64,000 nucleotides of DNA from Bacteroidota bacterium (GCA_017303975.1 JAFLBG010000001.1:91988-155987), one strand, 5' to 3'. Positions 24,288-63,435 are shown, counted from the first letter of the stretch. Translations and numbers: made by a program. The notes: a model not told the origin generated them from the sequence alone.

Positions 24288-24296
24288 AATAGTTTT

Positions 24297-24776
24297 TTAG
24301 TTCGTTAGTTCACCAGTTTTTAGTAAAAAATGGCAACAATAGATAGGTTTGAAGATTTAATAGCTTGGCAAAAAGCTAAAAAATTGGCACTGGGTGTATA
24401 TACTCTTACAAATGTTGGGATTTTTTCTAAAGACTTTGGATTGCGAGATCAAGTGAGGCGATCTTCTATTTCTGTTGTATCTAATATTGCAGAGGGTTTT
24501 GAACGCAAAGGGAACAGAGAGTTTTTACAATTCTTATATATTTCGTTGGGGTCTTTAGGCGAGTTAAAAACTCAAATTGAAATTGCTTTTGAACTCAACT
24601 ATTTTTCAGAAAACGAATACAAAAATATTTTACCCCAAATAACAGAAGTGAGAAAAATTATAAATGGTTTAATTTCTAGTTTAAAGGATAGTGATTTTAA
24701 GGGAATAAAATTTAAGTATTCATAGTACTCGTAAACTGAAATACTAACAAACTGGCAAACTTGAATACTAGTAAAC
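24297..24776 (+). mobile_element. IR-bounded four-helix-bundle cassette 1 (imperfect ~20-bp inverted repeats)
   Basis: Left arm TTAGTTCGTTAGTTCACCAGTTTTTAGTA (24297-24325). Right arm TACTAACAAACTGGCAAACTTGAATACTAG (24747-24776). The reverse complement of the left arm aligns with the right arm at about 17 of 20 positions (tactaa-aaactgg-..aact). Confidence 0.35.
24330..24725 (+). CDS. Four helix bundle protein (TIGR02436 / PF05635 23S rRNA-intervening-sequence protein family), copy 1
   Basis: 'FEDLIAWQKAKKL...VYTLT...FGLRDQVRRSSISVVSNIAEGFERKGNREFLQFLYISLGSLGELKTQIEIAFEL' matches the family consensus. Confidence 0.85.
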   Translation: MATIDRFEDLIAWQKAKKLALGVYTLTNVGIFSKDFGLRDQVRRSSISVVSNIAEGFERKGNREFLQFLYISLGSLGELKTQIEIAFELNYFSENEYKNILPQITEVRKIINGLISSLKDSDFKGIKFKYS

Positions 24777-24786
24777 AAAAAAACTG

Positions 24787-26238: not shown

Positions 26239-26246
26239 AAAGTTAT

Positions 26247-26728
26247 AAAGTTTAAAGTTGGAAAGTTTGAAATCAAATAATATTAATGGCAACAATAGAA
26301 CGATTTGAGGATTTAAAAGTTTGGCAAAAAGCACGACAGCTGAACAAAGAAATATATAAAGTATCTAATACGGGTGCTTTTTCAAAAGATTTTGGATTAC
26401 GCGATCAAATAAGACGTTCAAGTATTTCTATCGTATCTAATATTGCTGAGGGTTATGAAAGAAATGGTACTAAAGAATTCAACCAGTTTTTATCAATAGC
26501 AAAGGCTTCTGCGGCAGAATTAAGAGCGCAGCTTTATGTTTCCTTTGATTTAGAATATATTTCTGAACAAGAATTTAATACCCTAATCTCTATTGTTCTT
26601 GAGGTTAGCAAAATGCTTTCCGGATTAATGAGTTATTTACAAACAACCGAAATAAAAGGGAATAAATTTAAAGAAAGTGCTGAATTGTATGGTACGAATC
26701 AACTTTAAACTTTCCAACTTTAAACTTT
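26247..26728 (+). mobile_element. IR-bounded four-helix-bundle cassette 2 (perfect 22-bp inverted repeats)
   Basis: AAAGTTTAAAGTTGGAAAGTTT at 26247-26268 is the exact reverse complement of AAACTTTCCAACTTTAAACTTT at 26707-26728. The arms enclose the whole 4HB gene. The right arm starts within the stop codon and abuts the sufC start. Confidence 0.5.
26286..26708 (+). CDS. Four helix bundle protein (TIGR02436 / PF05635 family), copy 2
   Basis: 'FEDLKVWQKARQL...IYKVS...FGLRDQIRRSSISIVSNIAEGYERNGTKEFNQFLSIAKASAAELRAQLYVSFDL'. Confidence 0.85.
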   Translation: MATIERFEDLKVWQKARQLNKEIYKVSNTGAFSKDFGLRDQIRRSSISIVSNIAEGYERNGTKEFNQFLSIAKASAAELRAQLYVSFDLEYISEQEFNTLISIVLEVSKMLSGLMSYLQTTEIKGNKFKESAELYGTNQL

Positions 26729-26733
26729 AAACT

Positions 26734-27480
26734 ATGTTGACTATAAAAAACCTACACGCAGGAATCGAAGACAAAGAAATTCTAAAAGGATTTTCATTAA
26801 ATGTTAAACCTGGAGAAGTTCATGCAATCATGGGTCCTAATGGATCGGGAAAAAGTACATTGGCTAGTGTGCTTGCAGGACGCGAAGATTATACCGTTAC
26901 CGATGGAGAAGTAACTTTTAAAAACAAGAACTTATTGGAGTTATCTCCTGAAGATAGAGCAAGAGAAGGCGTGTTTCTTGCATTTCAATATCCAATAGAG
27001 ATTCCTGGTGTAAGCAATATCAATTTTTTAAAGACGGCCATTAACGAAATTCGTGCGTACAAAGGCATGGAAGCAATGGAAGCAAAAGACTTTTTAAAAT
27101 TGGTAAAGGAAAAGCAAGCCATGGTGGAGTTACAAGGCACGCTGGCAAACCGCAGTGTTAACGAAGGTTTTAGCGGGGGAGAGAAAAAACGAAACGAAAT
27201 TTTTCAAATGGCCATGCTGGAGCCAAGCTTAGCTATACTTGATGAAACTGACTCCGGACTTGACATTGACGCTTTGCGTATTGTAGCCAGCGGTGTAAAT
27301 AAATTACGCAACAAAGACAGATCGTTTATTGTTATTACGCACTACCAACGTTTACTAGATTATATAGTTCCTGACTTTGTGCATGTAATGTATCAAGGAA
27401 AAATTGTAAAATCAGGTGGAAAAGAATTAGCGCTAGAGCTGGAGAAAAACGGATACGATTGGGTGAAGGAGTTAGTTTAA
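26734..27480 (+). CDS. sufC: Fe-S cluster assembly ATPase SufC
   Basis: Walker A 'GPNGSGKST', ABC signature 'FSGGEKKR', Walker B 'LAILDETDSGLD'. Confidence 0.95.
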   Translation: MLTIKNLHAGIEDKEILKGFSLNVKPGEVHAIMGPNGSGKSTLASVLAGREDYTVTDGEVTFKNKNLLELSPEDRAREGVFLAFQYPIEIPGVSNINFLKTAINEIRAYKGMEAMEAKDFLKLVKEKQAMVELQGTLANRSVNEGFSGGEKKRNEIFQMAMLEPSLAILDETDSGLDIDALRIVASGVNKLRNKDRSFIVITHYQRLLDYIVPDFVHVMYQGKIVKSGGKELALELEKNGYDWVKELV

Positions 27481-27663
27481 AGTTAGAAAGTCAAATTCTC
27501 CCCTTGAGAGCTTGTCCGCCTCTGGCGGAGGAGATATAGAGGGGTGTGTAGGGGAAATTGTGCGGTTTTAAATGTTTAATAGATTAACAACTTAATATCA
27601 CAAATTGTGACATGAAGTTGAATTACTAACAACAAAGAACTTTGAACAAAGAATTAATTTATA
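27481..27663 (+). repeat. 183-bp sufC-sufD spacer: degenerate IR-bounded element containing a GC-rich REP-like hairpin core
   Basis: Left AAAGTTAGAAAGT (27482-27494) and right AAGAACTTTGAACAAAG (27638-27654) are in inverted orientation and belong to the same AAAGTT heptamer family. The core at 27488-27545 (..CCGCCTCTGGCGG.. GAGGGGTGTGTAGGGGAA) is an inverted, diverged copy of the 70-bp GC-rich repeat at 28984 and 29875. It also holds the palindrome TCACAAATTGTGA (27613-27625). Confidence 0.4.
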
Positions 27664-28983: not shown

Positions 28984-29056
28984 ACACACCCCTAGCCCCT
29001 CTCAAGAGGGGAACCTACGCACACTTCCCTACTTGAGGAGGAATTATGGAGGTGTA
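28984..29056 (+). repeat. GC-rich ~72-bp REP-like repeat, copy A (two GC hairpins)
   Basis: ACACACCCCTAGCCCCTCTCAAGAGGGGAACCTACGCACACTTCCCTACTTGAGGAGG...GGAGGTGTA. It contains hairpins CCCCTCT-ca-AGAGGGG and a TCCCT.C-ttga-GGAGG stem. About 90% identical to copy B at 29875..29946. A 3' half-copy lies at 29476..29506. Confidence 0.7.
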
Positions 29057-29968: not shown

Positions 29969-31186
29969 TTGTACAACATAACTAACATAAGCGACCAATT
30001 CCCAATACTTTCAGAGAAGGTAAATGGCAAACCATTGGTTTATTTGGACAATGCCGCCACTGTTCAAAAACCAAAACAAGTTATTGATGCTATTGTAAAT
30101 TACTATACACACACCAACGCAAATATTCACAGAGGTGTTCATACGTTGAGTCAAAAAGCTACAGATGCTTATGAGCAAGCACGAAAAAAAGTAGCTGACT
30201 TTATTGGTGCCTCAACTAACGAAATAGTATTTACGCGTGGTACCACAGAATCAATAAATTTAGTTGCGGAAACCTTCGGAAAAAAATTTATTTCAGCAGG
30301 AGATGAAATTGTAATTACAGAAATGGAGCATCACAGTAATATTTTGCCTTGGCAAAAATTATGTGAAGAAAAAGGGGCAAAATTAATTGTTGCACCAATC
30401 AACAACTCTGGAGAATTGATGCTCAATGAATTTGAAAAATTACTCTCCCTAAAAGCCAAGTTGATTGCAATTACCCATGTATCAAACACATTGGGGACAA
30501 TTAATCCAATAAAAAAAATAATAGAATTAGCTCATTCCAAAAATATATTTGTTCTTATAGATGGTGCACAGGCTGTGCCACACCTAAAAGTAAATGTAAA
30601 AGAGCTTGATGCCGATTTCTATTGCTTTAGTGGACACAAGATGTACGCACCTACGGGAATTGGTGCATTGTATATAAAAGAAAAGTGGTTGGCTCAATTG
30701 CCCACTTATCAGATTGGTGGTGGTGTTATAAAAACGGTTTCGTTTACCAAAACAGAATATATAGATGGACCTTTAAAATACGAAGCTGGTACTCCCAATA
30801 TTGCCGGTGCCATAGGACTTAGTGCAGCTATAGATTTTATGAATGAAATTGGTATTGAAACCATTCAGCATCATGAAGAAAAGTTGCTGCGTTATGCAAC
30901 AGAACAAATAACGCAACTGGAAAAAATAAAAATTATTGGGACAGCGACTGAAAAAGCTGGTGTGCTATCCTTCATTGTGGAAGGAGCACATCCATTCGAT
31001 GTTGGAACACTGTTAGATAAAATGGGTATTGCTGTTCGTACGGGACACCACTGCACACAACCCTTGATGGAAAAATATAAAATTCAAGGTACCGTGCGCG
31101 CTTCCTTTGCTTGTTATAATACCATTGAGGAAATAGATGTATTTTTGGAGGGATTAAAAAAGACGATTAGGATGTTAGTTGGGTAA
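29969..31186 (+). CDS. sufS: Cysteine desulfurase SufS (class V aminotransferase)
   Basis: 'FSGHKMYAPTGIGALY' PLP-lysine region and 'RTGHHCTQPLM' active-site Cys loop. Confidence 0.95.
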   Translation: MYNITNISDQFPILSEKVNGKPLVYLDNAATVQKPKQVIDAIVNYYTHTNANIHRGVHTLSQKATDAYEQARKKVADFIGASTNEIVFTRGTTESINLVAETFGKKFISAGDEIVITEMEHHSNILPWQKLCEEKGAKLIVAPINNSGELMLNEFEKLLSLKAKLIAITHVSNTLGTINPIKKIIELAHSKNIFVLIDGAQAVPHLKVNVKELDADFYCFSGHKMYAPTGIGALYIKEKWLAQLPTYQIGGGVIKTVSFTKTEYIDGPLKYEAGTPNIAGAIGLSAAIDFMNEIGIETIQHHEEKLLRYATEQITQLEKIKIIGTATEKAGVLSFIVEGAHPFDVGTLLDKMGIAVRTGHHCTQPLMEKYKIQGTVRASFACYNTIEEIDVFLEGLKKTIRMLVG

Positions 31187-31198
31187 TAAAAGGTGGGT

Positions 31199-31652
31199 GA
31201 TTGACTAGTCCGATAGTCTGTTAGTCAATTAGTCAGAAAGCTTACAGTAAATGAATTATGGCAACGATACAAAAATTTGAAGATATTGTAGCTTGGCAAA
31301 AGGCGAGGGAATTAAATAAGCGGATTTATTTGCTTACAACCAACTCTGCGATTGCAAAGGATTATGGATTACGCGACCAAATGAGAAGATGTTCAATTTC
31401 TGTGATGTCGAATATTGCAGAAGGATTTGAAAGAACCGGAGATAAAGAGTTTGCAAGATTTTTGAGCATTGCGATGGGATCGTGTGCCGAATTAAAGTCA
31501 CAACTTTATGCAGCACTGGATGTTGGATTTATAACTGAAATGGAATTTAATTCAGTTGTTATTCTCGTTGATGAAACTGGAAAGTTAATACAATCATTCA
31601 GAAAATATTTACGACTAACAGACTAGCGGACTTTTTAACTAACAGACTATAA
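31199..31652 (+). mobile_element. IR-bounded four-helix-bundle cassette 3 (19/20-bp inverted repeats, duplicated arm motif)
   Basis: AGTCCGATAGTCTGTTAGTC (31207-31226) pairs with GACTAACAGACTAGCGGACT (31613-31632), matching at 19 of 20 positions. A second unit, TAACTAACAGACTAT (about 31637-31651), pairs with ATAGTCTGTTAGTCA. The arms bracket the 4HB gene between the sufS stop and the sufE start. Confidence 0.5.
31258..31626 (+). CDS. Four helix bundle protein (TIGR02436 / PF05635 family), copy 3
   Basis: 'FEDIVAWQKARELNKRIYLLT...YGLRDQMRRCSISVMSNIAEGFERTGDKEFARFLSIAMGSCAELKSQLYAALDV'. Confidence 0.85.
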   Translation: MATIQKFEDIVAWQKARELNKRIYLLTTNSAIAKDYGLRDQMRRCSISVMSNIAEGFERTGDKEFARFLSIAMGSCAELKSQLYAALDVGFITEMEFNSVVILVDETGKLIQSFRKYLRLTD

Positions 31653-32084
31653 ATGACAATAAGCGCCATAGAAAAAGAAATTATAGACGAGTTTTCCTTA
31701 TTTGATAATGACTGGGAAAGTAAGTACGAGCACCTTATCGATTTAGGGAAGTCTCTTCCGTTAATTAACGAAAAGTACAAAACAGAAGATAGGCTTATAA
31801 AAGGCTGTCAAAGTCGTGTTTGGCTTCATTCAGAATTGAAAAATGATACTATTGTGTTCACCGCAGACAGTGACGCTATCATAACTAAGGGTATTGTAGC
31901 ACTTTTGATTCGTGTGTTGTCAAACCAAACTTCTGAAAATATTATAAATGCAAAGTTAGACTTTATAGATAAAATTGGATTGAAAGAGCACCTCTCACCT
32001 ACACGAGCCAATGGTTTGGTTAGTATGATAAAACAAATGAAACTGGATGCAATAATCCTAAAACAAAATGAAAATGAAGAATAA
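31653..32084 (+). CDS. sufE: SufE family cysteine desulfuration (sulfur acceptor) protein
   Basis: 'LIKGCQSRVWLHSEL...IFTADSDAIITKGIVALL' carries the conserved Cys of SufE. Confidence 0.85.
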   Translation: MTISAIEKEIIDEFSLFDNDWESKYEHLIDLGKSLPLINEKYKTEDRLIKGCQSRVWLHSELKNDTIVFTADSDAIITKGIVALLIRVLSNQTSENIINAKLDFIDKIGLKEHLSPTRANGLVSMIKQMKLDAIILKQNENEE

Positions 32085-44666: not shown

Positions 44667-46739
44667 TTATCTTATTGTTGAACCGTTTTGTATATCGCTT
44701 TTCTCGGGCGATACAAAACACAGAGATCCATCACTATTCTCCGCCATTAAAATCATGCCTTGCGATTCTATTCCTTTTATTTTGCGAGGTGCAAGGTTTA
44801 TTAGGATGCTTACCTTTTTTCCAATAATTTCCTCTGGTTTGTAGTGCTCTGCAATACCCGATACTACTATACGTTGATCGATACCGGTATCAATTTTTAA
44901 TTTCAACAATTTATCTGCTTTTGGAACTTTTTCTGCCTCTAGAATAGTTCCTACACGAATATCCATTTTGCTAAACTCATCGAAAGTAACTTCCGGCTTT
45001 GCAGCCTCAATCAACTTGGTAGTTGCAGCATTCATTTTTTTTGATTCTTCTAATTTATTTATTTGTGCCTCTACTAATGGGTCTTCTACCTTTTCAAATA
45101 GTAATGCTGCGGGTTGAATAACATGCCCTTCTTTTAGCAAGTCAATAGCTCCAGTGCCACTCCATAAAACACCAGACATATTAAGCATTTTCGATAATTT
45201 ACTCGCTGTAAAAGGCAAGAATGGCTCCATTAACACAGAGAGATTAGCACATGTTTGCAGTGAAATGTGCAATATTGCTTTTACTTTTTCCGGCTCTGTT
45301 GCTTGCAGTTTCCAGGGTTCGGTATCTGCCAAAAATTTATTTCCAATACGCGCCAAATTCATAAGTTCTGTAAGTGCTTCCCGAAATTTAAAGTTCTCTA
45401 TTGCAGTAGCAATTTTTACGGGAACATCTTTTATCTGATCGATAATAGATTTATATTCACTTTCATAACCAGCCATCGAAGGTACTTTCCCGTCATAGTA
45501 TTTATGGGTAAGGACAATAGTTCTGTTTACGAAATTTCCAAGTATAGCAACTAATTCACTGTTGTTTTTTAATTGAAAATCTTTCCATGTAAAATCATTA
45601 TCCTTTGTTTCCGGCATGTTGGAGCATAGGGTGTAACGCAGTACATCTTGCTTGTCTTTAAAATCAAGCAAATATTCATGTAACCAAACAGCCCAATTGC
45701 GAGAGGTGGAGATTTTATCGCCTTCTAAATTCAAAAATTCATTAGCCGGCACATTATCTGCTAACACATACTCTCCATGCGCCATGAGCATAGCAGGAAA
45801 AATAATACAGTGAAAAACAATATTGTCTTTCCCAATAAAATGAACCAATTTAGTTTCCTTATCCTTCCAGTACAGCTCCCAATTGGAAAGTTTATTAGAA
45901 CTTTGAACTTTAAACTTTGAACTTTCAAAGTACTCCTTAGTAGCGGAAATATATCCAATAGGTGCGTCAAACCAAACATACAGCACTTTTCCTTCTGCAT
46001 CTTTTACAGGCACTTTTACACCCCAATCCAAATCACGCGTCATAGCGCGAGGCTGTAACCCTTGATTTAACCACGATTTACACTGCCCATACACATTGGT
46101 TTTCCAGTCTTTGTGAGAATCAATATAGCTTTCAATGTCTGGTTGCATTTTATCTAATGGCAAAAACCAATTTTTTGTTTTTTTCAAAACCGGCTTTTCT
46201 CCACTTAATGTAGAACGCGGGTTTATTAAATCAGTTGGGTTTAAAGAACTGCCGCACTTTTCACACTGATCGCCATAGGCGTTCTCATTACTACATTTGG
46301 GGCAAGTGCCAACAATGTATCTATCTGCCAAAAACTGATTGGCTTTTTCATCAAAGTATTGTTCTGTTACTTCTTCTGTAAATATTTTTTTATCATACAA
46401 ATTTTTAAAAAACTCGGAAGCGGTCTCGTGATGAATCTTTGCAGATGTACGCGAATAGGTGTCGAAAGAAATTCCAAACTCAGCAAAAGCATCCCCCATT
46501 ATCTTGTGGTACTTGTCCACCACTTGCTGCGGAGTTATATCCTCTTTCTTTGCCTTAATGGTAATAGGTACACCATGTTCGTCTGAACCGCAAATAAAAA
46601 GCACGTCTTTACCAATAGCTCGTAAATAACGCACATAAATATCGGCCGGTAAATAGCATCCCGCCAAATGACCAATATGAACCGGTCCATTTGCATAAGG
46701 CAACGCTGCTGTAATTAAATATCGTTTAGGGTTTTGCAT
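44667..46739 (-). CDS. metG: Methionine--tRNA ligase
   Basis: 'HIGH' (PVHIGHLAG), 'KMSKS', Zn-knuckle cysteines and a C-terminal tRNA-binding domain. It also contains an unusual heptamer-repeat insertion (see findings). Confidence 0.95.
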
Positions 46740-46809
46740 AATAGCCACAAATTACGAAATATGTTACAGGCACTGAAGAACTTTGTTCGAAAAAATTTAA
46801 CTTGCGTAT

Positions 46810-59010: not shown

Positions 59011-60339
59011 ATGGATACCCTTAAAGAAAAATTTGTAGCAAAAGCTACACCAATGGCAGCTGAGGTTAAAGCCTTAATTAAAGAACATGGTGATGTTAAA
59101 CTTGGAGAATATACTGTAGCTCAAGTTTATCAAGGGATGAAGGGGATGATAGGACTAGTAACCGAAACGTCTAAGTTAGATGCAGAAGAAGGTATTCGCT
59201 TTAGAGGATACACCATTCCTGAGTTGCGCGAGAAGCTGCCAAAAGCTCCCGGAGGTACAGAACCATTGCCGGAAGGGATTTTTCATTTAATGTTATTGGG
59301 TGAACTACCAACAGAAGAAGATGTTCACAATGTGAGTAATAACTGGGCTCGCAGAGCGATTGTTCCAAAACACGTGTTTGACGTATTAGATAAATTACCC
59401 GCAAACATGCATCCTATGACTATGTTTAGCATTGCAGTAACTGCCATGCAAACAGAATCATTATTTGCAGCAGCATACAGAAAAGGCGTAAATAAAAAAG
59501 AATATTGGGACCACACCTACGAAGATTCTATGAATTTAATTGCACGCCTACCAAGGGTTGCGGCTTATATTTATAGAAAAAAATACAAAGATGATGTGCA
59601 TATTGAACCAGATCCTAAATTAGATTGGGCTGCAAACCTTGCTCACATGATGGGTTACGAAGAGTTTAATGTAAAACGTTTGATGCGCATGTACATGACT
59701 ATCCATGCGGATCACGAGGGTGGAAACGTTTCTGCGCACACTACACACTTAGTTGGCTCTGCATTGAGCGACCCATATTTATCTTTTGCATCCGGAATGA
59801 ATGGATTGGCGGGACCTTTGCATGGTTTGGCAAATCAAGAGGTAATAAAATGGATTTTGGATATGCGCAAAGAGCTAGGTGTTGATCTACCAACCGAAAA
59901 GCAAATTGCAGATTATATACACAAAACATTAGTCGAAGGAAAAGTTGTACCAGGCTACGGACATGCGGTATTGCGAAAAACAGATCCTCGTTTTTCTGCA
60001 CAACAAGATTTTTATAATAGATACATTAAAGAAGGTGGAAAAGGAGATGATTTGTGTGAAATAGTACAAATGATTTACAAAGTTGCTCCTCCTATTTTAG
60101 AATCTACCGGAAAAATTAAAAACCCATGGCCTAATGTAGATGCGCATTCCGGAGCATTATTAATGCACTACGGAATTGTAGAATTTGATTTCTACACCGT
60201 ATTGTTTGGTGTTTCAAGAGCATTAGGAGTATTAGCGTCTTTAATTTGGGACAGAGCATTGGGTCATCCAATTGAACGTCCAGGATCGGTTACTACCGAA
60301 GGAATTAAGAAGAAGATTGCAGCTGCTGTAAAACAATAA
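59011..60339 (+). CDS. gltA: Citrate synthase
   Basis: 'GYGHAVLRKTDPR' signature with His/Asp catalytic blocks. 442 aa. Confidence 0.93.
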   Translation: MDTLKEKFVAKATPMAAEVKALIKEHGDVKLGEYTVAQVYQGMKGMIGLVTETSKLDAEEGIRFRGYTIPELREKLPKAPGGTEPLPEGIFHLMLLGELPTEEDVHNVSNNWARRAIVPKHVFDVLDKLPANMHPMTMFSIAVTAMQTESLFAAAYRKGVNKKEYWDHTYEDSMNLIARLPRVAAYIYRKKYKDDVHIEPDPKLDWAANLAHMMGYEEFNVKRLMRMYMTIHADHEGGNVSAHTTHLVGSALSDPYLSFASGMNGLAGPLHGLANQEVIKWILDMRKELGVDLPTEKQIADYIHKTLVEGKVVPGYGHAVLRKTDPRFSAQQDFYNRYIKEGGKGDDLCEIVQMIYKVAPPILESTGKIKNPWPNVDAHSGALLMHYGIVEFDFYTVLFGVSRALGVLASLIWDRALGHPIERPGSVTTEGIKKKIAAAVKQ

Positions 60340-60348
60340 CAATAGTTT

Positions 60349-60425
60349 GAAGGTTATAAAGTTGAAAAGTTTGAAAGTTGTTCTTTACTTTAAACTTTCT
60401 AAACTTTCCGATTTTAAACTAACGT
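60349..60425 (+). repeat. Solo palindromic element of the AAAGTTT-heptamer family (IR arms adjacent, no cargo)
   Basis: Left GGTTATAAAGTTGAAAAGTTTGAAAGTTG. 7-nt loop. Right CTTTAAACTTTCTAAACTTTCC. Arm complementarity is about 17 of 20. The left arm is about 80% identical to the left IR arm of 4HB cassette 2 (26241-26273). It fills the whole gltA-to-UbiD-like spacer. Confidence 0.6.
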
Positions 60426-62321
60426 ATGTATAAATCCTTACAACACTTTGTAGATGCGCTTGAAAAAGCAGGCGAATTAATTCGCATCAAAGAATATGTA
60501 AATCCGCATTTAGAAATTACAGAGATTGTAGATCGTATTTCCAAATCGGAAAACAATAAAGCGCTGCTATTCGAAAACACAGGCACCTCATTTCCGTTGC
60601 TTATCAATTCCATGGGTTCATACAAGCGCATGTGTATTGCACTTGGGGTAAACGAACTAGATGACATAGCAAAAGAAATCGAGGGATTATTCAAATCGTT
60701 GGCATCACCGAAAGAAGGAATTCTAGATAAACTGAAGATGCTTCCAATGCTTGGTGAAATATCGTCTTGGATGCCCAAAACTATTTCAGGAAAAGGAGCA
60801 TGTCAAGAAGTGGTGATGGAAAAACCTGATTTGACAAAACTACCCGTAATGAAATGCTGGCCGGAAGATGGCGGTCCATTTATTACATTACCCGTTATCA
60901 ATACCATTGAGCCCAATACCGGAATACGAAATGTAGGAATGTATCGTATGCAAATTTTTGGTCCTGCATTAACCGGAATGCATTGGCATAAACACAAAGT
61001 ATCCGCAGGACATTTCAATGAATATAAAAAACTGGGCAAGAAAATGCCTGTAGCTGTTGCTCTTGGGGGCGACCCTGTTTATACGTATGCCGCTACAGCT
61101 CCACTTCCTCCTAATGTGGACGAATACATGCTTGCGGGCTTCTTACGAAAAAGGAAAGTAGAATTGGTAAAGTGTTTAACACAAGATATACATGTTCCGG
61201 CTGATGCCGATTTTATTATTGAAGGCTATGTAGATCCTGCAGATGAATTAATTTGGGAGGGGCCATTCGGAGACCACACCGGCTATTATTCCCTGGCGGA
61301 TTACTATCCAAAATTTCATGTTACATGTATTACACATAAAAAGAATGCTATTTATCCATCTACCATTGTTGGTATTCCTCCGCAAGAAGATGCTTGGATA
61401 GGTAAAGCAACAGAACGTATTTTTTTGGCTCCTATAAAAATGACATTGGTGCCTGAAATACTAGATATGGAGCTGCCTATAGAAGGAGTGTTTCACAACC
61501 TCACGATTGTTAAAATAAAAAAAGAATTTCCAGGTCACGCACAAAAAGTGATGAATGCCATGTGGGGTGCAGGACAGATGATGTTCAATAAAATTTTGGT
61601 AATTGTAGATGAGCATGTAACGATTCAAAATTATTTGGATGTAGCGCAAGCAATAAGTAAAAATGTAAATCCATCTTCTGATATCTATTTGGGCCAAGGA
61701 CCAATGGATGTGCTTGATCACTCTTGTTCTAAATTTGCATTTGGCGGGAAAATGGGAATAGATGCTACAACGAAATTTCCAGAAGAAATTTCTAAGTCCG
61801 AAATCCTAATTTCTAAATCCGAAATAAATACTAAAGAAATTAAAAATAAATATTCAGAAATAATAGATATTAATGTAACGCTTGCCAATATTGGAGTTTT
61901 AGCTGTTTTAATTTCTGTAAAAAAGAATAAGAAAAAGCATATTAAATGGCTGAATGAAGAATTGTTTAAGTTGGAAGAGTTTAAGCAATTTAAGTTTGCG
62001 ATTTATGTAGAGGAAACTGTAGATGCTTTTGATATAAAAGATGTTATTTGGCGCTGGGCAAATAATATAGACGCGCGTAGAGACACCTACATTATTGAAA
62101 CAGAAACAACATCACATGTAGGTTTTGATGGAACTCGTAAAACAAAAGAGCTAGATAATTTTGATCGTGATTGGCCTAATATTATATGTTCTGACGAAGC
62201 TACTATAAAAGCAATTGACGAAAAATGGAATACATTGGGACTAGGAACCTTTGTTTTCTCTCCCTCCATAAAATACCAAAAGCAGATGTACAAAGGTGGA
62301 GCGGTGGTAACAGAAAACTAA
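60426..62321 (+). CDS. UbiD-family (menaquinone-biosynthesis-type) decarboxylase with a long C-terminal extension
   Basis: 'GPFITLP...GMYRMQ...GGDPV' UbiD core of about 490 aa, then a further ~140 aa. Contains a 21-nt tandem duplication (ISKSEIL/ISKSEIN). Confidence 0.8.
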   Translation: MYKSLQHFVDALEKAGELIRIKEYVNPHLEITEIVDRISKSENNKALLFENTGTSFPLLINSMGSYKRMCIALGVNELDDIAKEIEGLFKSLASPKEGILDKLKMLPMLGEISSWMPKTISGKGACQEVVMEKPDLTKLPVMKCWPEDGGPFITLPVINTIEPNTGIRNVGMYRMQIFGPALTGMHWHKHKVSAGHFNEYKKLGKKMPVAVALGGDPVYTYAATAPLPPNVDEYMLAGFLRKRKVELVKCLTQDIHVPADADFIIEGYVDPADELIWEGPFGDHTGYYSLADYYPKFHVTCITHKKNAIYPSTIVGIPPQEDAWIGKATERIFLAPIKMTLVPEILDMELPIEGVFHNLTIVKIKKEFPGHAQKVMNAMWGAGQMMFNKILVIVDEHVTIQNYLDVAQAISKNVNPSSDIYLGQGPMDVLDHSCSKFAFGGKMGIDATTKFPEEISKSEILISKSEINTKEIKNKYSEIIDINVTLANIGVLAVLISVKKNKKKHIKWLNEELFKLEEFKQFKFAIYVEETVDAFDIKDVIWRWANNIDARRDTYIIETETTSHVGFDGTRKTKELDNFDRDWPNIICSDEATIKAIDEKWNTLGLGTFVFSPSIKYQKQMYKGGAVVTEN

Positions 62322-62833: not shown

Positions 62834-62909
62834 GGTGGAGAATATCGGATTCGAACCGATCACCTCTTCACTGCCAGCGAAGCGCTCTAGCCAAATGAGC
62901 TAATTCCCC
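62834..62909 (-). tRNA. tRNA-Ala (anticodon GGC)
   Basis: On the minus strand: GGGGAAT acceptor with a G3:U70 pair, anticodon loop CTGGCAG, T-arm GGTTCGAATCC, 3' ACCA. Confidence 0.85.
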
Positions 62910-62979
62910 AATTAGTGCAAATATAAAAAACTTCTTGCCACAAATAGCTTTTATAAATGGCAAAACGAAAATTGGGCAA

Positions 62980-63435
62980 TTATTTCTTAAACGATTTTTT
63001 GCTTGCCTTATCCATTCTTCTAGTTTCTTTTCCGCCAATGCCAAGTAGTTTAAATCCTTTTCTCTTTTTCTTTTTGTAGAAAGATTCTCCTCGTTTGCCG
63101 GTAGGTTTAAATTTCTTTTTTCGTTTGTAAGAAAAAGCATCGGCTGTCATATTGTATCCGCCACGCACACCCCTCGACCGCATACGTGCACTGTAGTCAC
63201 TTTGGTGCGAATTTTGCCTTGAGCCTAAAGAAAATTTTTTTCGCTTCGATTTAGACATTTTTCTTCTTTGCTTAGAAGAAATTCCTCTTGAGTGCTTTAC
63301 GCTGTGCGAGCGCTTTCTGGAACTAAACGGGTCAGAGTCAGGACCACCTGCATACGCAGAAACAGAATATCCATCGAATGTACTCGATAAAAAAAATAAG
63401 ATTAAAATAAATACTCCAATGAGTTGTTTGGACAT
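62980..63435 (-). CDS. Secreted, extremely basic low-complexity protein
   Basis: Signal peptide MSKQLIGVFILILFFLSSTF. The mature part is about 35% Lys/Arg with Ser/Gly (KRKKKFKPTGKRG...). Confidence 0.45.
   Translation of the reverse strand: MSKQLIGVFILILFFLSSTFDGYSVSAYAGGPDSDPFSSRKRSHSVKHSRGISSKQRRKMSKSKRKKFSLGSRQNSHQSDYSARMRSRGVRGGYNMTADAFSYKRKKKFKPTGKRGESFYKKKKRKGFKLLGIGGKETRRMDKASKKSFKK

What the first reader, a model, noticed from the sequence alone, without database searches (positions are those of the whole stretch)
45898..45931. Heptamer-repeat element (GAACTTT x4 with palindromic tail) inside the metG coding sequence, apparently in frame
What the sequence shows:
- The plus strand reads GAACTTTGAACTTTAAACTTTGAACTTTCAAAGT. 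This is the same heptamer family as the intergenic IR arms. It ends in a perfect 8-bp hairpin ACTTTGAA/TTCAAAGT.
- It lies within metG (minus strand) and is translated as ...[25 protein letters not shown].

From memory of other flavobacterial MetRS sequences (not checked): this segment, between the conserved 'GYISATKE' and '[21 protein letters not shown]' blocks, is about 8 aa shorter there. If that holds, the repeat is an in-frame insertion that the enzyme tolerates, reminiscent of Rickettsia palindromic elements inserting into ORFs.
Basis: partly seen in the sequence, partly recalled or inferred. Interest (0 to 1): 0.6.

Follow-up and report, generated by a model that had tools for sequence, protein, structure and literature searches.

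The report
In-frame heptamer repeat insert in MetRS
A short repeat (four 7-base units with small inverted ends) sits in frame in a loop of the essential enzyme methionyl-tRNA synthetase. It belongs to a repeat family found between genes in the same genome, and related bacteria carry other, unrelated repeats at the same spot.

Summary
Window 45898-45931 is GAACTTT x4 plus CAAAGT, inside an intact metG (minus strand), read as SSKFKVQSS.

It is an insertion. Half of the 120 closest MetRS read K[DE]L-T[PK]D-W here, 12-13 residues shorter. None shares this segment.

The same AAAGTT words form the inverted arms around a PF05635 gene between sufB and sufC, and an ORF-less inverted repeat at 60343-60421. 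The metG copy shares 13 nt with one suf arm and 12 nt with the other.

The site is the only large internal indel site in these MetRS. 60 of 120 carry inserts, up to 45 residues longer than baseline, from several unrelated DNA families (heptamer arrays, GC hairpins, double hairpins). Proteins 97-98% identical elsewhere carry unrelated inserts.

AAAGTTC arrays giving the same peptide also lie in frame in PyrF, MoaA, PolA and other genes in metagenomes, and in the UbiD-like linker of relatives.

Best reading: a small repeat element tolerated in a permissive loop, analogous to Rickettsia palindromic elements. The insertion mechanism is inferred, not shown. This copy has no significant RNA structure. 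I rate it a new variant of a known kind, interest about 0.6.

The parts
44667..46748 (-). metG (methionyl-tRNA synthetase) ORF. The NCBI product P0001 starts at the ATG at 46739 (690 aa). It is intact, with the PVHIGHLAG (HIGH) and KISTS (KMSKS-type) motifs, zinc knuckles and a C-terminal tRNA-binding domain.
   Evidence: 100% match, Pfam PF09334/PF08264/PF01588. PDB 1rqg, E 1e-175.
45882..45932 (-). Variable loop segment Y273-N289 ([17 protein letters not shown]), between anchor residues E272 and W290. It is 39 nt longer than the LTPD form of relatives.
   Evidence: Alignments; coil 277-288, pLDDT 64-73.
45898..45925 (-). Heptamer array: 4 units (GAACTTT x3, AAACTTT x1 on the + strand; AAAGTTC/AAAGTTT in the coding sense), read as S-S-K-F-K-V-Q-S-S.
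45914..45931 (.). Palindromic tail ACTTTGAA-ct-TTCAAAGT (an inverted heptamer at the 5' end of the insert in the coding sense).
   Evidence: 7-bp stem, whole region z -0.9.
45885..45904 (.). Second small hairpin AAAGTT-TATTAG-AACTTT. In the coding sense, TAAACTTTCCAA matches the right arm of the sufB-sufC cassette 12 of 12.
26239..26272 (+). Left inverted arm (AAAGTT heptamer array) of the PF05635 cassette between sufB and sufC.
   Evidence: arms joined fold at -32.5 kcal/mol, z -9.4.
26286..26708 (+). PF05635 (23S rRNA-intervening-sequence protein, Avd-like four-helix bundle) gene, the cargo of the cassette.
   Evidence: E 1e-39.
26700..26733 (+). Right inverted arm (AACTTT heptamer array) of the same cassette.
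60343..60421 (.). ORF-less inverted repeat of AAAGTT/AACTTT words between the upstream ORF 59011..60339 and the UbiD-like gene.
   Evidence: z -3.1.
27476..27655 (.). sufC-sufD spacer: AAAGTT-type words at both ends enclosing a GC-rich hairpin element.

Best explanation
The metG segment is a miniature, ORF-less copy of a genome-wide repeat element built from tandem 7-nt words (AAAGTTN) with short inverted ends. It became inserted between two anchor residues (F274 and W290) of a loop in the second half of the MetRS catalytic domain, and it is translated.

It persists for three reasons:
- Its length keeps the reading frame.
- The AAAGTTC unit has no stop codon in any frame in this orientation. 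A 7-nt period gives the same 7-residue peptide (KVQSSKF) in all three frames.
- The loop tolerates almost any sequence.

In this genome the same words form the inverted stems that bracket PF05635 genes, and they form ORF-less hairpins between genes.

The loop acts as a hot spot. In relatives it is repeatedly filled, emptied and refilled with different repeat families. One possible reason is that resident repeats and hairpins promote deletion and attract further, nested insertions.

Shown: the insertion, the family membership, the hot spot, and recurrence in other genes. Inferred: the insertion mechanism (transposition-like, or templated copying from other copies, followed by slippage) and the neutrality of the peptide.
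For: - Insertion. None of 120 closest MetRS has the segment. About half read K[DE]LT[PK]DW. GTDB species representatives do the same.
- Family. AAAGTT arrays lie at 26239-72, 26700-33 and 60343-60421. 13-nt and 12-nt exact matches link the metG insert to the two suf-cassette arms.
- Hot spot. This is the only large internal indel site in the alignment, occupied in 60 of 120 sequences. Inserts come from several unrelated families, and insert DNA was read in 12 loci of relatives.
- Turnover. P0014/P0019 and P0030/P0086 are 97-98% identical outside the loop yet carry unrelated inserts. P0062 (with insert) and P0118 (without) are 96.8% identical. L208 and L209 are syntenic and 94-96% identical in DNA, but carry a 33-nt GC hairpin versus an 87-nt AATCAAG array plus extra sequence.
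- Same family nearby in the same genome: L083 intergenic inverted repeat 2187-2269, and L084 12171-12209.
- Recurrence. They lie in frame in PolA, a P-type ATPase, PrmC, MoaA, PyrF and RseP with the same [10 protein letters not shown] peptide. They align as insertions against PDB homologues of PyrF and MoaA.
- Second hot spot. UbiD-like proteins of relatives carry SSKFKVQSS in their linker.
- Stop-codon filter. C-unit arrays lie in ORFs in the sense orientation (18 of 45), G-unit arrays in the antisense orientation (18 of 40), and A/T-unit arrays mostly outside ORFs.
- Structure. Coil 277-288 with pLDDT 64-73. There is a 7-aa gap against 1rqg and a 13-aa gap against human 5gl7.
Against: - No target-site duplication or defined element ends could be identified. 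Both boundaries coincide with conserved anchor codons (TTT/TTC and TGG), so the insertion point is not resolved.
- No transposase or other mobilising enzyme is linked to the element.
- In 7 of 11 loci with insert DNA, no convincing second copy of the insert's family was found in the 6-22 kb available. L085 gave one 13-nt match of doubtful meaning.
- In PolA and in the UbiD-like linker the arrays replace native sequence with little net length change. Simple insertion does not explain that.
- The neighbour-joining tree used to argue for independent events has no support values.
- Only 64 kb of this genome was examined.
Confidence: 0.7

Rival explanations
1. Local microsatellite birth. A chance heptamer duplication in the loop expanded by replication slippage, with no transfer from other copies. 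Resemblance to the intergenic arrays would reflect a shared mutational bias toward AAAGTT-type words.
For: Tandem heptanucleotides are classic slippage substrates and the commonest long simple-sequence repeat class in prokaryotes (Mrazek 2007, as summarised in PMC4679880). Copy number varies between otherwise identical copies, for example L108 with 3 versus 4 units. No target-site duplication or element ends were found.
Against: The insert also carries inverted words at both ends, and these match the two arms of the suf cassette. The same unit recurs in unrelated genes and in genomes of 21-68% GC. Nearly identical MetRS carry unrelated, non-tandem hairpin inserts at the same site. Slippage alone does not produce inverted repeats.
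Confidence: 0.15
2. The insert is functional. Either the lysine-rich peptide was selected (for example for tRNA or partner contact), or the mRNA hairpin was selected for processing or translational pausing.
For: Inserts in relatives are strongly structured as RNA: L083 z -6.5 and L084 z -5.0. Half of the relatives keep some insert. The peptide [10 protein letters not shown] is basic.
Against: The window's own insert has no significant structure (z -0.9). Insert peptides in close relatives differ in charge, length and composition: acidic NQDTSIKNQD, glycine-rich SPSGRAGEG, or none. The model confidence is reduced and the segment is coil.
Confidence: 0.07
3. Ancestral low-complexity loop that has simply diverged; no insertion took place.
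For: The loop varies naturally across MetRS, for example in P. abyssi, Flavobacterium and Pedobacter. The aromatic anchor (L/Y/H)F before the loop is shared with P. abyssi.
Against: No orthologue shares the segment or its length. Lengths range up to 45 aa longer than baseline among proteins 75-98% identical. The DNA is a near-perfect 7-nt tandem array, which is not expected of an old coding sequence.
Confidence: 0.03

Closest known systems
Rickettsia palindromic elements (RPE; Ogata et al. 2000, from memory)
   Same: Short repeated DNA with inverted symmetry. It is inserted in frame in housekeeping genes, is translated, sits at permissive surface positions, and also occurs between genes.
   Different: RPEs are about 100-150 bp with conserved family consensus sequences, and they are restricted to Rickettsia. 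This element is about 47 nt, is built from tandem 7-nt words, has only short inverted ends, and shows no sequence similarity to RPEs. It comes from an uncultured Bacteroidota genome.
Geobacter metallireducens multicopy element of four tandem heptanucleotides (GGGACCG; Aklujkar et al. 2009, PMC2700814)
   Same: [quoted passage not shown]
   Different: The unit is different (GC-rich). That paper proposes the element as a regulatory RNA element. It describes no orthologue-based proof of in-frame insertion, no hot spot, and no link to PF05635 cassettes.
TAACTGA heptamer direct repeats of Beggiatoaceae, Cyanobacteria and five Bacteroidetes (MacGregor 2015, PMC4679880)
   Same: These are heptamer arrays dispersed mainly between genes. 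Some lie inside ORFs in the orientation free of stop codons and give a 7-residue periodic peptide (LSVISYQ). The same stop-codon filter argument applies.
   Different: TAACTGA arrays sit mostly just upstream of start codons. Intragenic cases lie at protein ends or in hypothetical proteins. No inverted arms, no hot spot in a conserved enzyme, and a different unit.
Cyanobacterial STRR heptamer repeats and small dispersed repeats (Mazel 1990; Elhai 2008; from memory, not read here)
   Same: Tandem heptamers are abundant between genes. Very small mobile repeats nest inside heptamer arrays and inside each other. That resembles the compound inserts seen here (P0062, P0019, L169).
   Different: Different phylum and different units. 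In-frame occupation of one loop of an aminoacyl-tRNA synthetase was not described, to my knowledge.
23S rRNA intervening sequences carrying a PF05635 ORF (Leptospira and Coxiella type; from memory)
   Same: A PF05635 gene is enclosed by a long inverted-repeat stem. In the window, three such cassettes lie in the suf operon.
   Different: Here the cassettes lie in mRNA operon spacers, not in rRNA. The stems are made of tandem 7-8-nt words that differ between cassettes. RNase III excision has not been tested.

Membership tests
Methionyl-tRNA synthetase (host gene) | Class I catalytic core with HIGH and KMSKS motifs, anticodon-binding domain, and full-length similarity to solved MetRS | tested here: met
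   (PF09334, PF08264, PF19303, PF01588); 1rqg E 1e-175 over residues 9-558 and 582-689. The motifs PVHIGHLAG and KISTS are visible in the translation.
Tandem heptanucleotide repeat (long simple-sequence repeat) | Head-to-tail copies of a 7-nt unit, more than expected by chance | tested here: met
   period 7, 4.0 copies, 90% matches; 6 matches against 1.58 expected.
Dispersed repeat family within the same genome | Several copies of the same word arrays at unlinked sites | tested here: met
   sites at 26239-72, 26700-33, 45885-931, 60343-421 and 27476-95 within 64 kb. The rest of the genome was not available.
In-frame repeat insertion in an ORF (RPE-like behaviour) | Present in one orthologue and absent at the same position in close orthologues; reading frame kept; gene otherwise intact | tested here: met
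Rickettsia palindromic element family (membership) | Sequence similarity to an RPE consensus and a long (about 100-150 bp) palindromic structure | tested here: not met
   The element is about 47 nt, and its RNA fold is not significant (z -0.9). There is no Rfam match in the window. Direct comparison with RPE consensus sequences was not possible with these tools.
MITE (miniature inverted-repeat transposable element) | Terminal inverted repeats | tested here: inconclusive
   Short inverted heptamers lie at both ends. Full inverted arms are seen in L083 and at 60343-421. The metG copy is mostly one-armed.
MITE (miniature inverted-repeat transposable element) | Target-site duplication and a cognate transposase | tested here: not met
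   No flanking direct repeat beyond conserved codons was seen. No transposase is associated in the window. Only PF05635 genes are linked to the arrays.
PF05635 / IVS-like cassette | PF05635 ORF enclosed by complementary arms | tested here: met
   This holds for the three cassettes in the window, not for the metG copy, which has no ORF.; also L184 and L196.
PF05635 / IVS-like cassette | Excision of the stem-loop from the transcript by RNase III | not testable with these tools
   This needs RNA 5'/3'-end mapping.

The most novel reading that the evidence does not exclude
The heptamer arrays, GC hairpins and PF05635 genes may be parts of one uncharacterised mobile system in Bacteroidota and other phyla. 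In this reading, IVS-like cassettes consist of a PF05635 (Avd-like) gene enclosed by stems made of tandem 7-8-nt words. Their ORF-less derivatives spread between genes and into permissive loops of essential proteins, and they insert preferentially into earlier copies. That preference would create hypervariable 'landing pads' such as the MetRS F274-W290 loop and the UbiD-like linker. The PF05635 protein would bind or process the heptamer stems.
Probability: 0.25. Interest if true: 0.75.

Novelty: new variant of a known kind. Interest (0 to 1): 0.6.

Why it matters
In-frame selfish or repeat DNA in essential genes is textbook only for Rickettsia. Here the same behaviour appears in free-living, uncultured Bacteroidota, with a different kind of element (7-nt tandem words).

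One defined loop of an aminoacyl-tRNA synthetase turns over inserts between proteins that are 97-98% identical elsewhere. This has three consequences:
- It gives a natural map of where MetRS and a UbiD-family enzyme tolerate arbitrary peptides.
- It is a caution for alignment-based phylogeny and annotation. Many arrays are called as small hypothetical ORFs.
- It offers a handle on the unknown function of the very abundant PF05635 '23S rRNA IVS protein' genes, which here are always bracketed by such arrays.

Tried and rejected
- RNA structure as the reason for the window's insert: rejected, z -0.9.
- Rfam: only two tRNAs in the window, and nothing at any repeat.
- Plasmid collection search with the region: no match.
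- Literature search for the DNA or peptide strings AAAGTTCAAAGTTC, GAACTTTGAACTTT, SSKFKVQ and KFKVQSS: no paper.
- Literature searches on PF05635 with inverted repeats, and on RPE-like in-frame insertions in aminoacyl-tRNA synthetases: nothing specific.
- Protein search with a synthetic (SSKFKVQ)x6 peptide: only short hypothetical ORFs called over long arrays, uninformative about host genes.
- Target-site duplication: none seen.
- Second copies of the insert family in the flanks of L005, L063, L081, L082, L206, L208 and L209: none convincing in 6-22 kb.
- L181 'GKLKVESL' inside an alcohol-dehydrogenase-like ORF: judged native sequence rather than an insertion.
- One look-up returned no DNA (P0018).

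Full report
**1. The observation**

Window 45898-45931 (+) reads GAACTTT GAACTTT AAACTTT GAACTTT CAAAGT. Tandem Repeats Finder gives period 7, 4.0 copies and 90% matches. The palindrome ACTTTGAA (45914-21) and TTCAAAGT (45924-31) is real, with a 2-nt spacer.

A second small hairpin lies on the other side: AAAGTT-TATTAG-AACTTT at 45887-45904. The element therefore spans about 45885-45931.

It lies in ORF 44667..46748 (-). This is MetRS: a 100% match to P0001, a 690-aa methionine--tRNA ligase of an uncultured Bacteroidetes MAG. Similarity to P. abyssi MetRS 1rqg is E 1e-175. The repeat is read as SSKFKVQSS within ...[33 protein letters not shown]...

A 14-mer of two units with up to 2 mismatches occurs 6 times in the window against 1.58 expected. 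All six matches lie in three heptamer arrays.

**2. It is an insertion**

I aligned the 120 closest MetRS (73-77% identical to the query). About half read K[DE]L-T[PK]D-WE at this point, 12-13 residues shorter than the window. None contains the [13 protein letters not shown] segment.

Among GTDB species representatives:
- Most Bacteroidia read KELTPDW.
- Flavobacterium reads KEWAAREGKDW, 9 residues shorter than the window.
- Pedobacter has its own conserved 24-residue insert.

Solved MetRS align with a gap here: 7 residues for 1rqg and 13 for human 5gl7.

An AlphaFold2 model built on 68 sequences places a helix at 261-276, a coil at 277-288 and a short helix at 289-294. Block pLDDT is 73 and 64 across 271-290, against 92 in the next block. 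The segment is thus a poorly defined loop in the second half of the catalytic domain, after the connective-peptide/zinc region. I did not compute solvent exposure.

**3. It belongs to a repeat family of this genome**

The same AAAGTT/AACTTT words occur elsewhere in the window:
- They form two inverted arrays at 26239-26272 and 26700-26733. These bracket a 140-aa ORF lying between sufB and sufC. That ORF is PF05635, '23S rRNA-intervening sequence protein', E 1e-39.
- They form an ORF-less inverted repeat at 60343-60421 (RNA z -3.1).
- AAAGTT-type words also flank the sufC-sufD spacer.

The metG insert shares AAAGTTTAAAGTT (13 nt) with one arm of the suf cassette. In the opposite orientation it shares TAAACTTTCCAA (12 nt) with the other arm. 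It therefore looks like a miniature, ORF-less, largely one-armed version of such an inverted repeat.

**4. The cassettes**

The window holds three PF05635 genes, all in the suf operon: 24330-24725, 26286-26708 and 31258-31626. Each is bracketed by complementary arrays of 7-8-nt words, and the word differs between cassettes: TTAGTTC-like, AAAGTTT and TAGTCNNN.

When the two arms of each cassette are joined artificially, they fold with z -2.2, -9.4 and -7.4.

Two unrelated metagenome contigs show the same arrangement with yet other words: GTAAACG in L184 and GTTGATT in L196. The arms are complementary within a cassette while the word differs between cassettes. This points to selection for a stem rather than for a specific sequence, as in rRNA intervening sequences. 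That inference is untested.

**5. The MetRS loop is a hot spot**

In the 120-sequence alignment this is the only substantial internal indel region. It is occupied in 60 sequences, with loops up to 45 residues longer than baseline.

Insert DNA obtained from relatives shows several unrelated families:

| Locus | Insert |
|---|---|
| L083 | A complete inverted heptamer repeat, GTTCGAA-type (RNA z -6.5) |
| L081, L082, L209, L206 | AATCAAG arrays (peptide NQDTSIKNQD) |
| L063 | TCGAAAT x4 |
| L005, L208 | GC-rich hairpin TCTCCC-TTGA-GGGGAGA... (peptide SP.GRAGEG) |
| L084 | Two inverted GTCATNCTGAACTTGATTCAG units (RNA z -5.0) |

Some inserts are compound, for example P0062, P0019, P0063 and P0029.

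Turnover is fast:
- P0014 and P0019, and P0030 and P0086, are 97-98% identical outside the loop but carry unrelated inserts.
- P0062 (21 extra residues) and P0118 (no insert) are 96.8% identical.
- L208 and L209 are syntenic, and their metG DNA is 94-96% identical on both sides. Between the same TTGTTT and TGGGAA boundaries they carry 33 nt and 87 nt of unrelated sequence.

In an unsupported neighbour-joining tree, insert-bearing and insert-free proteins interleave.

Copies of the insert's family lie nearby in the same contig for the window, for L083 (inverted repeat just upstream of metG) and for L084 (just downstream). No convincing copy was found in the 6-22 kb available for the other loci.

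The window itself has GC-rich hairpin elements of the SP.GRAGEG type in suf operon spacers.

**6. The same arrays occur in other genes**

A metagenome scan for three consecutive AAAGTTN units reached its 120-locus limit. The contigs range from 21% to 68% GC.

Many arrays lie in frame in recognisable housekeeping genes and give the same peptide:
- [10 protein letters not shown] appears in the PolA 5'-exonuclease domain, a P-type ATPase, a 2-oxoacid:ferredoxin oxidoreductase subunit, PrmC, MoaA, PyrF and RseP.
- In the opposite orientation, NFQLSTF appears in Fmt and Glf.

Gene identities come from conserved motifs and, for three of them, from PDB matches. Against solved homologues:
- The PyrF array is a roughly 14-residue insertion.
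- The MoaA array is a roughly 23-residue insertion.
- The PolA array mostly replaces native residues, with a net gain of 5.

The unit decides where arrays survive:
- AAAGTTC has no stop codon in the sense orientation. 18 of 45 such arrays lie in ORFs of at least 150 aa, in the sense orientation.
- AAAGTTG is stop-free only in the antisense orientation (18 of 40).
- AAAGTTA and AAAGTTT have stops in both orientations and lie mostly outside ORFs.

Because 7 and 3 share no factor, an array encodes the same 7-residue period in every frame. Only the total length must be a multiple of 3.

**7. A second hot spot in the window**

The UbiD-family menaquinone-biosynthesis decarboxylase (60426-62321) has, in its linker, ISKSEIL-ISKSEIN. 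This is encoded by two 21-nt repeats of AAATCCG-type heptamers at 61788-61829.

In its 120 closest homologues the same linker position carries:
- SSKFKVQSS (P0123, P0132, P0133, P0139);
- SPKSEVRS (P0131);
- NQQLTT repeats (P0175);
- full inverted versions (P0133, P0164).

These often come with little net change in length. At least three heptamer families are thus shared between the MetRS and UbiD-like hot spots.

P0123 and MetRS P0035 both list a longest contig of 60,487 bp, so they are probably from one genome. In that genome the AAAGTTC array would sit in the UbiD-like gene rather than in metG. This is an inference from contig length only.

**8. Mechanism**

Shown:
- an in-frame insertion of a dispersed repeat;
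- tolerance in a loop;
- a stop-codon and frame filter;
- rapid gain, loss and replacement at the same site.

Inferred: how copies arrive. The options are transposition-like movement of ORF-less derivatives of the inverted-repeat cassettes, templated copying or gene conversion from other copies through microhomology, and subsequent slippage.

I found no target-site duplication, no defined ends and no transposase. The hot-spot behaviour could reflect three things:
- Everything between F274 and W290 is unconstrained.
- Resident arrays and hairpins promote deletion.
- Elements may prefer to insert into earlier elements. The compound inserts suggest this, and it recalls the nested small dispersed repeats of cyanobacteria (from memory).

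The window's copy has no significant RNA structure (z -0.9), so an RNA-level role for this particular copy is unlikely.

An array of 4 units in an essential gene is also a mutational liability. Any change of +/-1 or +/-2 units shifts the frame.

**9. Comparison with known systems**

In behaviour this is closest to Rickettsia palindromic elements. It is not a member of that family: its size, its build and the absence of a long palindrome all differ.

Dispersed 'four tandem heptanucleotide' elements at intergenic and intragenic sites were noted in Geobacter metallireducens (PMC2700814). TAACTGA heptamer arrays, some inside ORFs in the stop-free orientation, were described in Beggiatoaceae, Cyanobacteria and five Bacteroidetes (PMC4679880).

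I found no paper containing this repeat or its peptide, and none describing PF05635 cassettes with heptamer-array stems. No Rfam family matches.

**10. Verdict**

It is one visible instance of a wider, apparently undescribed pattern.

I rate it a new variant of a known kind, interest about 0.6. The main open points are the insertion mechanism and the relation to PF05635.

Noticed in passing
window 24290-24777, 26239-26733, 31199-31650: Three paralogous PF05635 (23S rRNA-IVS protein, Avd-like) genes are inserted in the suf operon: upstream of sufB, between sufB and sufC, and between ORFs 29969..31186 and 31653..32084. Each is enclosed by complementary arrays of 7-8-nt words, and the word differs between cassettes.
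   Followed up: partly
window 61788-61829 (in ORF 60426-62321): The UbiD-family menaquinone-biosynthesis decarboxylase has a 2 x 21-nt repeat (AAATCCG-type heptamers) read as ISKSEIL-ISKSEIN in its linker. Homologues carry other heptamer-array peptides at the same position, including SSKFKVQSS. This is a second in-frame hot spot.
   Followed up: partly
window 27497-27560 and 28990-29045: GC-rich hairpin elements (for example CCCCTC-TCAA-GAGGGG) lie in suf operon spacers of an otherwise 36% GC window. They are of the same type as the SP.GRAGEG-encoding MetRS inserts of relatives. The one in the sufC-sufD spacer is nested between AAAGTT-type words.
   Followed up: partly
L108:738-757 and 1778-1804: Two copies of an AAAGTTG array with identical GC-rich flanks lie on one GC-rich contig. 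They differ by one unit (3 versus 4), which indicates a dispersed element with copy-number slippage in a quite different organism.
   Followed up: no
L169 (MoaA-like ORF, residues ~87-112): A compound in-frame insert: an AAAGTTC array ([12 protein letters not shown]) is followed by a second 7-residue periodic segment (NPQSAIRNPQ), suggesting two heptamer families side by side.
   Followed up: no
L178:418-437: An AAAGTTC array is flanked by TTTAGGG repeats (plant-type telomere unit). This contig is probably eukaryotic, so not all metagenome hits are bacterial.
   Followed up: no
L081, L082, L084, L206-L209 (upstream of metG): A conserved 117-aa ORF without any Pfam hit lies between the Peptidase_S66 gene and metG in most relatives.
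   Followed up: no
window 62980-63435 (-): A 151-aa ORF is extremely rich in K, R and S, and overlaps another small ORF (62868-63140) next to a tRNA at 62836-62909. Its coding status is unclear.
   Followed up: no
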